NCBI GenBank assembly: GCA_964188305.1
Contig: OZ076889.1
Direction: 5' to 3' (one strand)
DNA length: 64,000 nt
Origin: Podarcis bocagei
Lineage: Eukaryota
Every line of letters starts with the position of its first letter. Position 1 is the first letter of the stretch. Position numbers: made by a program. Below, one piece after another: positions 53,001 to 62,000 of the stretch.

Positions 53001-56000
53001 AGCTAAACCATGTCTATCAGGTAAGCATGAAATGGCATGAGCAATCAGCATTGGAATTGAAAGAGAGATTGAAGTGAATCTGGAATTTGCTTGGCTAACC
53101 ATTCTTATCACATGTTTCCTGCTCCAGTTCGAATACATGGCCCAGCACCTAGTGTTTGCCAACTGCATCCCCCTTATACTGAAATTCTTCAATCAAAACA
53201 TCATGTCATATATCACTGCCAAGAACAGGTAGGTGGGAATATCTCTAGCACACCTGTATCCCAAAATGCTATGACAGGAAATGTGACACACTATATTTGC
53301 AGTGGGACACCTAGATGGTATCCAGATGGGATATCTAAGAATAACTAGTTATCCTTCACAATTTTAACTTGGAGAAAGGAAGATGTTTCATCCCACTGAT
53401 AAAAAAACACCTGCTGAGAAATCATTTCTCTCCACCAACCCTACTACTTGTCTGTAAAATGGATAGGTTTAAAATGTGCTTGTTTGAAAAGACATTGAGT
53501 GACGTTCATGTAGATCCCATGGCCATGAGTATTACTGGACTCAACAGACACCATTGCCCTTGTGGGCTAAAACATTACTAAGCAGTTGGCTGATCTGCTT
53601 ATTTTTCTTGGCAGTAGGTAAGTATCTGGGATAGGCAGATATAGAAAGATGTTCATGTGTGAAGCCTCTTGGTTGTTGCCAGCTGAATAGCAGTGGGTGG
53701 AGATGATGTCACAATCATTTTTCTCATATGTTTGAACCTGGCAGGGGCAACCATTTTGGACACGGTATATTTCACTAGATAGGTCATCCATTCTGATCCG
53801 TTTGGGGTTTTTTGTGTTTTTTAGCATCTCTGTTTTGGATTACCCATACTGTGTGGTGCATGAGCTGCCTGAGCTGACTGCAGAGAGTCTGGTGAGCTAA
53901 ACTACCTGGACAGAAACATATATAGCTGAGGGGTGGAGATGGCATTGTCAATAAGGGGCAATTTCTCACTTTCCTTACTTGGTAATATTTCCTTTGTTTT
54001 GCTTTTTTTCCTATAGGAAGCTGGAGACAACAATCAGTTTTGCTGGCGAAACCTGTTTTCCTGCATTAATCTACTTAGGATACTGAACAAATTAACAAAG
54101 TGGAAGCACTCAAGGACTATGGTGAGTAGAAGGGCCTCCTCACATAGTGCTGTTAAGGCTTTATTGATGATGTGCCATCCTTTTGGCCTTAAGCAAATGG
54201 ATGGTGACCAAGGCACAGACGAAGTCTTGGAAAACTGAGAGTGTTCCTTTGCTTTCTCAGATGTTGGTGGTATTCAAGTCTGCACCCATTCTGAAACGAG
54301 CCCTCAAAGTGAAGCAAGCCATGATGCAGCTTTACGTTTTGAAGCTGCTCAAAGTGCAGACCAAGTACTTGGGGCGACAGTGGAGGAAGAGCAACATGAA
54401 GACCATGTCAGCAATCTACCAAAAAGTGCGGCACCGGCTCAATGATGACTGGGCTTATGGCAATGGTATGTCCTGGATCTGTCTCTCCTTTCCACCCACT
54501 CCCAAGTCTTTCATAAGCCTTTAACTGCTATGCCAAGCCAGTTCCCTTAAATCACCCATCTGCCTTCCTGTTAACAGATCCCATCAGTAGTTGCTAGGAG
54601 CGTATGGTGATGGCTCCACTTATCCTAAACAGAGCAAGCTGAGGAATGTGCTTCCCCACCTCTAAATTGATGTTGCTTGATAGACAGGGTGGTACAGTAA
54701 CTATAGTGTTGAACTTGGACCTCAGAAATACGTGTTCAGATCCTTGCAATGAACCATATAGTGTAGTCTTGGACAAGTCACTGGGTCTCAGCCTTAAACT
54801 ATTTTCTACTGTGGAACCTCAGTTTTTGAGCATCTCGGAAGCTGAACAATTCGGAACACAAATACAGAAAACCTGGAAATGATTGACTCTGTTTTCAAAC
54901 GCGCCTTGGAAATTGAACTGCTTCTGCTGCATGTTTTTCCATTTTTTTCAATGGATTTTGCTGACCGCCCATTGATACTCAGTTTTTGAACATTTTGGAA
55001 GTCAGACAGTCTTCTGAAACAGAATACATTCAAAAACCGAGGTTCCATTGTACTAGAGTGACCATAAATGACAAGCTGGAGTCACTCCATACTTCTTCAT
55101 AGAAGGTTGGAATACAAGTGTGAGATATTATTGATGTCTATGTCTGCTGGGAAGTCCCTATGCATCTCATCCCTAGAAGTTGTATTTCTTAAAGATCTGC
55201 CAAATGGGATGACATAATGCTGGACTGCCTGTATGACATTGTATGGCATTTTCATTGTGGGGGTATGATTGGAGCTCTTTTGCTCCTTCAGCTGATTGTT
55301 TGCTTCATGACTTTTGCAGATCTGGATGCACGTCCTTGGGACTTCCAGGCTGAGGAGTGTGCTCTGCGTGCCAGCATAGAGCGTTTCAACTCTCGCCGTT
55401 ATGACCGGGCACATAACAATCCTGATTTTCTACCTGTGGATAACTGTTTGCAGAGTGTTCTGGGCCAGCGCGTAGAACTGCCTGAAGATTTCCAAATGAA
55501 TTATGACTTGTGGCTGGAAAGGGAAGTTTTTTCTAGACCCATCTGTTGGGAAGAATTGCTCCAATGACGTTTGAGAAGAGGGAATCGGAGCTAGTACGTG
55601 TGCCCAAGGACAAGGCAGCTTCTCTTCGGTCAACCGGGCATAGAGAGAAGAGATAAAACTGGTTTTTCATATGGCTTGTAATCTGCAGTTCTTTCCTTCT
55701 CCTCCAGGTGGTGGCATGGATTTATACTGCTCTCAAGGTTCTAGCAAATATGGCTTTCCTACATCTTTTGGGCTACTTCAATTACTGATTGGTTTAGAAG
55801 GTGCTAAATGGATTCAGAGCAGTTCACTTTGAGACTCAGATCAATTGAAAAACGCTGAGCAAAATACCAGTGTCAGCTTTGATTGCTATTCACATGCTCC
55901 TTGTTGGGCTTCTGTCCATTGGCATTGGCCAGCTATTCTGTTCCAAAAGTAGTATGGCAGCTTTTTTCTGCTATGCCCCCACTCTTATCCCAAAAGGACA

Positions 56001-59000: not shown

Positions 59001-62000
59001 TAGATAAGAAACAGTTCCCCTTTCTGGAAATGAGACAGCGAGTTTATTCTATTTATTATGAAGATTTATAGTCTTACCTTTTTACAAAATACCTAAGGTA
59101 ACTTACTATAAAGATAAAAATACACTATTAATACAAGAGAATGTGCAGTAAAATGGTAAGTGCAATTCAATGCAAGCAAGTGTAAAGTGATAACTATTGG
59201 AGCAAAAAATATTATGTCACATAGTACAGTATAAAACTGCAAATATAATGTTGTTATACAAATCTATTGTGCAACCACACTTGAAATACTGTGAACAGTT
59301 CTGGTTGCCTCACCTCAAAAAGGATATTGTAAAGCTGGACAAGGCTTAGAAAAGGGTAACCAAAATGATCTAGGGGCTGGAGCAACTCCATAGTAGGAGT
59401 ATATAACATTTGAGGCTTTTAGTTTCAGAAAAAGACAAGGAGGAACATTCTAGAGGTGTAAAAGTTTGTGCATGGGATGAAGAAAGTGGATAGCTAAGTT
59501 TTTTCTCCTATATAATACTAAAACCTAGAGTCATTCAGTGAAGTTCAATGTTGGAAAATTCAGGACAGACAAAGAACTTCACAGAGTCCATAATGAAAAC
59601 ACCCAGAAGATGTAGTAATGGTCCCCAACTTGGATGGCTTTTATAAGAAGATTAGACAGACTCTTGGAGCATAAGGCTATCAGTGTCTACTAACCACAAT
59701 GGCTTTGTTCTTCCTCCACTGTTGGAGGCAGTATGTCTCTAAATACCAGATGCTGGGAATCACAAGTGGGGAGAGTACTCTTTGACTCATGTCCTGCTTA
59801 TGGACTTCTCATAGGTATTTAGTTGGTCACTATGAGAACAAGACGATGGAATGAAGAGCTTTTGGCCTGATTGAACAGGGCTCTCCTTGCGTTCCTAATA
59901 TCAGATGGATCCTGCTCCTCAGTTGCTTTGTTTTCTACAAAGGCAAAGGCCCAGAGATTGTGTATTGATGATTGGAATGCATAAGCAGTTTTTGAGAGAC
60001 AAATTGATTCATCTAATAATACTTGGAGTGCAGACAAGGCACACTCAGGCTGCTCCTTTGGCTCAGAGGCAACTTAGCATTTTAGTACACATTTCTCCAG
60101 ATGTAGTGTTTTGTGTGCAACATTCCCCAATATACACATTTTTGTATGCTCACTTCACTAACATTGTGCATTTCTATGCACACTTTCCCCTAATGTTTAT
60201 ATATTTTGACACATATCATTTCACCGCATTGCAAAATGCAGAGAAGTGTGAATTTCAAAGAATATCGATTTCAGTTCGTGCTGTATCAGGAAGTGCAAAT
60301 TAGGGAGTGATCATATCAAAGTGCAATCTGAATTGAAATTATCCCCCATCCAAACTTCCCCCCCTTTGTTCAACACCTAAAGTTCACAGTGACTGGCCCT
60401 GGTAGAATTGTGACATCAGAGGAAAATCAGCCAATCGCTGGCTTCCTCTTTGTCCCTTCCCATTCCCTCATTCAGGCAGGGCTTGATTTACTAGCCCATT
60501 GAGCAAGGCAATGCTGCTCACAGTGAAGAGGCTGCTTGGGCAGCAGTGCCGCCTTCAGGTGTCTGGCGAGGAGAGGATCTCTCTGGTGAAAAGCCTGGTG
60601 TGTGAAGAGCTCAATGTCCCCGAGAACCAGCAGACCCTGTTGTTCCAGGGGAAAGTGCTGGAGGGGGAGCACAAATTATCAGACTATCTCATTGGCCCAG
60701 AGTCCATCCTCTATCTGGTGATTAAAAAACCTGAGCAAGCTCACCCTGAGGAGCCCTCAAAGCCGACCGCTGCCCAGCCCCACTCAGTGTGGTATCGACT
60801 CTCGCAAGTCCTGGAGAAACATTTCAGAACTTCCGACGCAGTGAGGGTTCTTGAGCGGGTGCTGAACGACTACTACAAAGGCCTTGGCTTGCTGAGCCTG
60901 GAAAGCATCGAAGAGTTAGCAGGGGACCTCCTAAGTCCTGAGGAAGGTGAACTGGTGGCTACAGGTGAGCTCCCCCAGCAAGAGGGGCACCCCACAGCCC
61001 CAGTGTCTGAATCCAGGAAGGATAAAGCGACCCAGACTGAGCCACAAGAAATGCTAGGAGGAAGGTGGTGCTGGAAGAACTCTTGAGTAGACTTATTTAG
61101 AGATGTCTAAGCGAAAATTAAAATAGTGATGGTGTATGGAACATGGAGCTGTGTCTTTATGTACCAAGGAGGAAGGAGGTTTAGTAAATGAAGATGACCA
61201 TTTTTAAAAGGACCAGAGCTTCAGTTGGTATTGAAACTAGTGCTGTGCCAGATTTTTCACAGGCAAACAGTTTTGGCATGAAAGGGAATCCTTGGGGAAG
61301 GAGAAAAGTTCACTGAACAGCCCCTGAATGCATTTACCCCTACTGACTGCTGCTTTGGTGCCATTCCCCCCCCCCCCCGGGCATCTCATTTCTGGCTGTG
61401 TGATCCCAGCTAACTGGCTGCCTTGTTCCTAGTGTGGTGATGTCATGGCACCACACAGCAAATCAGAGCTGGCAATGTCCAATATTCCTAAGGCCAAATG
61501 AAGCCCTAATTACACTCACTCTTGAATGAAGGAAGCCTGCATTGCCTCAATGATCCCTGTGTTATCATATTGCACTGGCCATTTAATTGTCTGACAGCAC
61601 AGCAAGGCAGGACGCATCAGCACCATTGTCTTGGCAGCAGGTTGATATATTCTGTCTTCTCCCATGAATAGTTTTTTTGGGGGGGGAGCCACACCCTGAA
61701 AAATCACCATATATGGGGCATTCTGAGGGAGGTGCAAAAACACCTATGAAAACAGTCTCCCTGTTTCAGACCTGGCTCTATCATAGCTTTATCTCCTCCA
61801 CCACCACCATCACACTAGGCTTGTATCCAGTTACAGTACATGGTCCTTGGTTCCATCTTTGGCATGGCTATTTAAAATACTGGTGTCCAAAAAGCAGATC
61901 TCTAGCAAGACTACATGAACTGGTTGAGCCTGACAGCCCTGGTTGAGATGGACAATTGTCATGGTTTGTCCTTGTACGCCATCTCTCTGTACATTGAATC

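What the first reader, a model, noticed from the sequence alone, without database searches (positions are those of the whole stretch)
55568..60510. ALX3 is missing between STRIP1 and UBL4B: candidate gene-loss scar
Seen in sequence: only about 4.9 kb separate the STRIP1 stop from the UBL4B ATG, much of it 3'UTR, MITEs and CR1. I found no homeobox (WFQNRR) or ALX C-terminal (LLNWTT-like) coding remnant on either strand. Established: in mammals the paired-type homeobox gene ALX3 occupies this interval, which is tens of kb long, and Alx3 loss has been reported in lizard, frog and chicken lineages. Inference: the window spans the deletion that removed ALX3, and the flanking UBL4B narrows the breakpoint to a few kb.
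Basis: partly seen in the sequence, partly recalled or inferred. Interest (0 to 1): 0.65.

Follow-up and report, generated by a model that had tools for sequence, protein, structure and literature searches.

The report
Known lizard ALX3 gene loss site
In this lizard sequence the face-patterning gene ALX3 is absent from its usual place between STRIP1 and UBL4B, which matches a gene loss already published for lizards, so the finding is real but ordinary.

Summary
The window is from a squamate, probably a lacertid: its UBL4B is 96% identical to that of Zootoca vivipara. It carries AHCYL1, STRIP1 and UBL4B in that order on the + strand. The STRIP1 stop (55565-55567) and the UBL4B ATG (60511) are 4,943 bases apart, with no N in the window.

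I found no homeodomain or OAR signal. This covers 197 six-frame segments of the interval, 107 segments downstream of UBL4B, motif scans of all 64 kb, and a scored helix-3 scan that stayed at the level of shuffled sequence.

The interval holds likely STRIP1 3'UTR, MITE-type inverted-repeat elements, one with an 8-base target duplication, and a decayed LINE ORF2 tail.

Mammal gene lists give the order STRIP1-ALX3-UBL4B. Absence of Alx3 at this syntenic place in lizard (Anolis), frog and chicken was published in 2011 (PMC3166657).

So this is a known loss seen in a second lizard family. "Deletion scar" and "breakpoint narrowed to a few kb" go beyond the evidence. Whether ALX3 sits elsewhere in the genome could not be tested here.

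The parts
14294..31025 (+). AHCYL1 coding exons (14 tblastn pieces), the upstream neighbour
   Evidence: Local tblastn with the adenosylhomocysteinase part of a stored fused Bos mutus model, P0136
39516..55567 (+). STRIP1 gene, about 20 coding exon pieces; the GC-rich 5' end lies at 38-40 kb
   Evidence: Local tblastn with the stored Phrynosoma platyrhinos STRIP1, P0023, 85-100% identity per exon for most pieces. GC is 0.505 at 38001-40000. The apparent double match at 52913-53226 is two exons with a short intron, not a frameshift
55320..55567 (+). STRIP1 terminal coding exon with stop TGA at 55565-55567
   Evidence: Aligns to residues 757-837 of 7k36_I. 100% identical to the Naja naja and Ophiophagus hannah STRIP1/FAM40A C-termini. 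Pfam DUF3402, 4.5e-05
55568..60510 (.). STRIP1-UBL4B interval, 4,943 bases, where ALX3 is expected; no ALX3-like coding remnant
   Evidence: No Rfam family. CpG observed/expected <=0.37 throughout, so no CpG island
55568..56885 (+). Probable STRIP1 3'UTR (inferred), up to the only AATAAA on the + strand at 56861-56866
   Evidence: Poly(A)-signal scan. No transcript data, so this is inference only
58162..58395 (.). MITE-like element, 234 bases, with perfect 15-base terminal inverted repeats
   Evidence: the repeat finder I3. No target-site duplication seen
58429..58729 (.). Outer inverted-repeat pair (33-base arms, 82% complementary) enclosing the next element; possibly a nested MITE
58505..58640 (.). 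Palindromic MITE, 136 bases, flanked by an 8-base direct duplication at 58497-58504 and 58641-58648
   Evidence: 63-base arms, 86% complementary. Duplication read directly. A 74.5% identical copy lies at 2066-2160
59194..59890 (+). Decayed 3' fragment of a non-LTR (CR1/L2-type) retrotransposon: ORF2 tail broken by stops
   Evidence: One frame reads through with stops. The 51-aa piece has 659 relatives at E<=0.001. 4 of the 21 long relatives scanned carry RVT_1. The end coordinate is approximate
60411..60435 (+). Promoter-proximal motifs before UBL4B (a CRE-like octamer and a CCAAT box); function inferred
   Evidence: Read. The motif meanings are recalled and were not tested
60511..61086 (+). 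UBL4B, intronless ORF of 191 aa, intact
   Evidence: Pfam ubiquitin plus Tugs. The 16 named hits of 19 are all squamate or tuatara, 11 of them named ubiquitin-like protein 4B

Best explanation
This is the ordinary intergenic spacer between STRIP1 and UBL4B in a squamate (lacertid-like) genome that no longer has ALX3 at its ancestral place. The gene and its surroundings were removed long ago, most simply once, before iguanian and lacertid lizards split. What lies there now is STRIP1 3'UTR, later transposon insertions (MITEs and a LINE tail) and the UBL4B promoter. Shown: the gene order, the short gap and the lack of any homeobox or OAR remnant. Inferred: that the loss came by deletion, that it is shared with Anolis, and that ALX3 is missing from the whole genome.
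For: Gene order AHCYL1-STRIP1-UBL4B on one strand with no N. 0 of 197 interval segments and 0 of 107 downstream segments match Homeodomain or OAR, while the same scan picked up the STRIP1 exon and UBL4B as positive controls. No WF.NR in six frames of the 64 kb. The helix-3 score is at shuffle level. Mammal lists give STRIP1, ALX3, UBL4B in that order. PMC3166657 reports no Alx3 by tblastn in the Anolis draft genome and its absence from the syntenic region between Slc6a17 and Fam40a. UBL4B is 96% identical to Zootoca, 84% to Rhineura and 70-71% to Anolis, so this is a second lizard lineage. The 4.9-kb gap is of the same order as the roughly 8.5 kb between the last AHCYL1 and first STRIP1 coding pieces.
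Against: Only 64 kb of the genome was seen. ALX3 could lie elsewhere, and no ALX3 query could be used. 30% of six-frame codon positions lie in segments under 20 aa and were not scanned with Pfam. A remnant decayed over more than 100 million years would escape every test used, so absence of a remnant does not tell deletion from decay. Nothing dates the event. The 2011 evidence is for Anolis on a draft assembly, not for this species. The squamate gene-loss paper PMC13005343 does not mention ALX3, STRIP1 or UBL4B in its main text, and its supplements could not be opened.
Confidence: 0.8

Rival explanations
1. ALX3 is not lost but moved: a rearrangement took it out of this interval and it survives elsewhere in the genome.
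For: No call supports it. It is simply not excluded, because only this window could be read.
Against: PMC3166657 found no Alx3 by tblastn in the whole Anolis draft genome. The gene order around the gap is undisturbed.
Confidence: 0.05
2. Assembly artefact: a GC-rich ALX3 segment dropped out or the interval was misjoined, so the short gap is not real.
For: Recalled, not tested: GC-rich genes have gone missing from some sauropsid assemblies. Zebra finch has Alx3 while chicken appeared to lack it.
Against: No N anywhere in the 64 kb. Composition is smooth across the interval, GC 0.40-0.47. Sequence is continuous from the STRIP1 stop through transposons to the UBL4B promoter. Anolis was independently reported to show the same absence.
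Confidence: 0.05
3. An independent, more recent loss in the lacertid lineage, separate from the Anolis loss, that could leave a true mappable scar.
For: Alx3 has been lost independently several times in vertebrates, so repeated loss is possible.
Against: Not even a weak coding remnant is left. One loss before the two lizard lineages split is more parsimonious; that is inference.
Confidence: 0.1

Closest known systems
Loss of Alx3 in Anolis carolinensis, Xenopus tropicalis and chicken (McGonnell et al. 2011, PMC3166657; passages read)
   Same: Same gene, same syntenic place (between Slc6a17 and Fam40a, recalled as the old name of STRIP1), same kind of evidence (conserved neighbours, no homeobox), and a lizard.
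   Different: This window is from a different lizard family, lacertid-like by UBL4B identity. It adds UBL4B as the nearer flank, which the 2011 text never names (0 occurrences), and gives a base-level gap of 4,943 bases.
Mammalian 1p13.3-type locus AHCYL1-STRIP1-ALX3-UBL4B-SLC6A17 (gene lists in PMC9394163 for human and PMC7655849 for cattle)
   Same: Same flanking genes in the same order. In the window all three are on one strand.
   Different: ALX3 (and, in human, a long non-coding RNA gene listed beside it) lies between STRIP1 and UBL4B. Here nothing coding does. The size of the mammalian interval is recalled only and was not checked.

Membership tests
ALX3 / paired-class aristaless-like homeobox gene (intact or remnant) | Paired-class homeodomain (Pfam Homeodomain; helix 3 with WFQNRR) | tested here: not met
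   0 of 197 interval segments and 0 of 107 downstream segments. 0 WF.NR in the 64 kb. Helix-3 score 19 against a shuffle mean of 20.6. The motif itself is recalled.
ALX3 / paired-class aristaless-like homeobox gene (intact or remnant) | C-terminal OAR/aristaless domain | tested here: not met
   No Pfam OAR hit at E<=1 or E<=0.1. 0 matches to an OAR-like regex.
ALX3 / paired-class aristaless-like homeobox gene (intact or remnant) | Similarity to the ALX3-specific N-terminal and linker regions | not testable with these tools
Lineage-wide gene loss (gene absent from the whole genome) | Orthologous flanking genes adjacent, with the gene missing between them | tested here: met
   STRIP1 and UBL4B are 4,943 bases apart with no N.
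Lineage-wide gene loss (gene absent from the whole genome) | No copy elsewhere in the genome or transcriptome | not testable with these tools
   No vertebrate genome collection is on hand. Published for Anolis only.
Deletion scar with mappable breakpoints | Alignment to outgroups that keep ALX3 shows where homology stops on each side | not testable with these tools
   No turtle, bird, tuatara or mammal locus could be fetched.
STRIP1 (striatin-interacting protein 1) | C-terminal exon collinear with the STRIP1 C-terminus; N1221/DUF3402 architecture in relatives | tested here: met
   7k36_I residues 757-837, E 1e-48. The named hits are STRIP1/FAM40A carrying PF07923 plus PF11882. Exons were mapped one by one. 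STRIP2 was not explicitly excluded.
UBL4B | Ubiquitin-like domain plus Tugs domain in a single uninterrupted ORF; relatives named UBL4B | tested here: met
   domains; one ORF, 60487-61086; 11 of the 16 named hits are called ubiquitin-like protein 4B.
MITE (non-autonomous DNA transposon) | Terminal inverted repeats, target-site duplication, small size, no ORF, further copies | tested here: met
   For 58505-58640: inverted arms, an 8-base duplication (read), and one diverged copy at 2066-2160. For 58162-58395 only the inverted repeats are met; no duplication was seen. The link from an 8-base duplication to the hAT superfamily is recalled.
CR1 LINE | ORF2 region downstream of the reverse transcriptase domain, shared with RT-bearing proteins | tested here: met
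   659 relatives. RVT_1 in 4 of 21 long relatives scanned, 3 of them above the cut-off. In P0241 and P0147 the match lies downstream of RVT_1; in P0141 it lies upstream.
CR1 LINE | CR1-specific 3' end, as opposed to L2 or another clade | not tested
   No repeat library is on hand. A word-based protein search found nothing and the atlas search was inconclusive.

The most novel reading that the evidence does not exclude
The ALX3 gap seen here in a lacertid-like lizard and the one published for Anolis are the same single event in the stem of squamates (perhaps of lepidosaurs). All lizards and snakes would then pattern the face with ALX1 and ALX4 alone, and this 4.9-kb spacer is one descendant copy of that old scar, whose edges could be mapped against turtle or tuatara.
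Probability: 0.6. Interest if true: 0.2.

Novelty: already known. Interest (0 to 1): 0.12.

Why it matters
ALX3 helps shape the front of the face in mammals, and its repeated loss in vertebrates is a textbook-style case of paralogue redundancy. This window only re-observes the published lizard loss in another lizard family and gives exact coordinates for the gap. It could serve as one data point for dating the loss across squamates, but it opens no new question.

Tried and rejected
1. Six whole-frame translations sent to Pfam failed because of stop codons. I replaced them with stop-to-stop segments.
2. The CR1 check by protein atlas was inconclusive: score 0.94 to unnamed clusters with no Pfam family, and recognition below the stated level.
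3. The CR1 check by the word-indexed protein search, longer proteins only, gave 4 candidates and none significant. The full HMMER scan then gave 659 relatives.
4. Self-blastn of the interval against the window to show repetitiveness found only 1 non-self match, covering 102 of 4,943 bases. The window is too small for this test.
5. Rfam: 0 matches at gathering score in the 64 kb.
6. Tandem repeats: none in the interval; one (CTA)12 at 63421-63456.
7. Literature searches for later reports on ALX3 in squamates found only the 2011 paper and a 2020 review that cites it. PMC11871421 and PMC5656309 mention Alx3 and lizards in unrelated contexts.
8. A suspected STRIP1 frameshift at 53026-53032 turned out to be two exons with a short intron.
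9. A script call got no answer and was repeated.
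Full report
**What is in the window**

The 64,000 bases contain no N.

- **AHCYL1.** Local tblastn with stored database proteins places its coding exons at 14294-31025 on the + strand.
- **STRIP1.** The same search places its coding exons at 39516-55564, also on the + strand. Exons were examined one at a time.
- **STRIP1 terminal exon (55320-55567).** It ends in TGA at 55565-55567. Its 81 residues align without gaps to residues 757-837, the very C-terminus, of the solved "Striatin-interacting protein 1" chain 7k36_I (E 1e-48, 6 of 81 positions differ). 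A search of the large protein set with this exon gave 793 proteins at E<=0.001 among 822 candidates. Of the 120 listed, nearly all named rows are STRIP1, STRP1 or FAM40A, or carry STRIP-type Pfam domains. The squamate rows from Naja naja and Ophiophagus hannah are 100% identical.
- **UBL4B (60511-61086).** This is one uninterrupted ORF of 191 aa with a ubiquitin-like domain (2.2e-14) and a Tugs domain (1.6e-12). All 16 named hits among its 19 significant relatives are from squamates or tuatara, and 11 are named ubiquitin-like protein 4B. Identity is 96% to Zootoca vivipara, 84% to Rhineura floridana, 70-71% to two Anolis species and 69% to Sphenodon.

I therefore take the window to come from a lacertid-like lizard. 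It is not human sequence.

**The observation**

I cut all six frames into stop-to-stop segments and sent every segment of 20 aa or more that overlaps the interval to Pfam at E<=1. That made 197 segments, 150 scanned and 47.

- None matched Homeodomain or OAR.
- 15 gave unrelated matches with E 0.012-0.18, far below the curated cut-offs.
- One is the UBL4B ORF itself.
- The same scan recovered the STRIP1 terminal-exon ORF (DUF3402, 4.5e-05), sent as an extra control, and UBL4B, so it works on real exons here.

The scanned segments cover 70% of six-frame codon positions, 6,920 of 9,882. The rest lies in pieces too short for the tool.

Other tests agree:

- Regex scans of all six frames of the whole window found 0 WF[QK]NRR, 0 WF.NR and 0 OAR-like strings. 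Two K/Q/R-V/I-WF strings, at 22703 and 32194, are not followed by NR.
- A sliding BLOSUM62 score against a recalled 12-residue paired-class helix-3 motif peaked at 19 of a possible 72 in the interval. This is below the mean best score of 100 shuffles (20.6, sd 3.3, maximum 33).
- The 107 segments downstream of UBL4B (60876-64000) also lack Homeodomain and OAR; 8 gave unrelated sub-threshold hits.
- Rfam finds nothing in the window.

**What fills the interval**

- **Probable 3'UTR.** The only AATAAA on the + strand is at 56861, 1.3 kb past the stop, so 55568 to about 56885 is plausibly the STRIP1 3'UTR. This is inference, since I had no transcripts.
- **First MITE-like element.** A 234-base element at 58162-58395 has perfect 15-base terminal inverted repeats.
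- **Second MITE.** A palindromic element has 63-base arms, 86% complementary. Read directly, it is 136 bases long (58505-58640) and is flanked by an 8-base direct duplication at 58497-58504 and 58641-58648. A 74.5% identical copy lies at 2066-2160. A further pair of 33-base inverted arms (58429-58461 and 58697-58729) encloses it and may be an older element into which it inserted.
- **LINE fragment.** From 59194 to about 59890 a single frame reads through a stop-riddled ORF. Its first 51-aa piece has 659 relatives at E<=0.001 in the 1.84-billion-protein library. I scanned 21 of the 150 listed hits, all of them 289 aa or longer. 4 carry RVT_1, 3 of them above the cut-off. In P0241 and P0147 the matched stretch lies downstream of the RT domain; in P0141 it lies upstream. 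8 carry only unrelated host-gene or spurious domains, typical of gene models that swallowed a repeat, and 9 carry nothing. So this is the tail of a non-LTR retrotransposon ORF2. I could not decide between CR1 and L2, and two cheaper searches were uninformative.
- **No CpG island.** Observed/expected CpG is <=0.37 throughout the interval.
- **UBL4B promoter region.** The last 100 bases before the UBL4B ATG hold a CCAAT box and a CRE-like octamer. Their meaning is recalled and untested.

**Comparison with what is known**

Two gene lists written in chromosomal order give AHCYL1, STRIP1, ALX3, (a lincRNA), UBL4B, SLC6A17 in human (PMC9394163, passage) and the reverse in cattle (PMC7655849, passage). 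ALX3 is therefore expected exactly in this interval.

McGonnell et al. 2011 (PMC3166657; passages read) searched the Anolis carolinensis, Xenopus tropicalis and chicken genomes by BLAST and examined synteny. [quoted passage not shown] Fam40a is, from recall, the old name of STRIP1; one search lists STRIP1 relatives under that name. They found the losses to be independent of one another, while zebra finch keeps the gene. A 2020 review repeats this (PMC7719703, passage).

Searches for later work on ALX3 in squamates turned up nothing further. A 2026 paper on squamate gene loss (PMC13005343) does not name ALX3, STRIP1 or UBL4B in its main text.

**Interpretation**

The absence is real and fits the published lizard loss. 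The window adds a second lizard family and a nearer flank, since the 2011 text never names UBL4B.

- **"Deletion scar" and "breakpoint narrowed to a few kb".** No feature marks a junction. The interval is about as long as the neighbouring AHCYL1-STRIP1 spacer, roughly 8.5 kb between coding pieces. Part of it is made of later transposon insertions.
- **Mode of loss.** If the loss is shared with Anolis, which is the parsimonious reading but an inference, it is so old that no coding remnant would be expected either way. One deletion, many deletions and decay cannot be separated.
- **Rivals.** Translocation and assembly error remain formally open. I rate each at about 0.05, given the Anolis whole-genome result and the gap-free, compositionally smooth sequence.

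**What stayed unchecked**

- Whether ALX3 exists elsewhere in this genome. No vertebrate genome collection was available, and no ALX3 query was obtainable from a tool.
- Alignment of the interval with species that keep ALX3.
- The name of the LINE clade.
- The supplements of the papers.
- The closed collections (metagenome and viral contigs), which are irrelevant here and were not used.

**Verdict**

The finding is already known and of low interest.

Noticed in passing
window 62468-62860 (+): A second decayed LINE ORF2 tail downstream of UBL4B: a 90-aa open segment followed by a 3' region that, from recall, looks like a typical CR1 end. Pfam found nothing in it.
   Followed up: no
window 61437-61490 compared with 60408-60440: Downstream of UBL4B there is a second CRE-like octamer followed by 'aaatcag' and CCAAT-like strings, resembling the arrangement just upstream of the UBL4B ATG. 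It could be a repeat or another promoter (read).
   Followed up: no
window 59899-60303 (+): The longest open segment in the interval (134 aa) lies over a stretch of loosely repeated units of about 30-40 bases. There is no Pfam match above chance and no tandem repeat call. It is probably a repeat and not a gene.
   Followed up: partly
protein hits P0020 and P0135-P0137: Several database gene models (sturgeon, tree shrew, yak, bat) fuse adenosylhomocysteinase-like and STRIP1 domains into one protein. These are most likely read-through mis-annotations of the neighbours AHCYL1 and STRIP1, and they incidentally confirm that the two genes are adjacent in those species.
   Followed up: no
window 38001-40000: The GC peak of the window (0.505 against about 0.40 elsewhere) sits at the first STRIP1 coding exon (39516). 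It probably marks the promoter CpG island.
   Followed up: no
window 63421-63456 and 61367-61379: A (CTA)12 microsatellite and a run of about 13 C.
   Followed up: no
window 56652-56768: A 36-base inverted repeat pair, 78% complementary and 45 bases apart, lies inside the putative STRIP1 3'UTR. It could be a hairpin or an old MITE.
   Followed up: no
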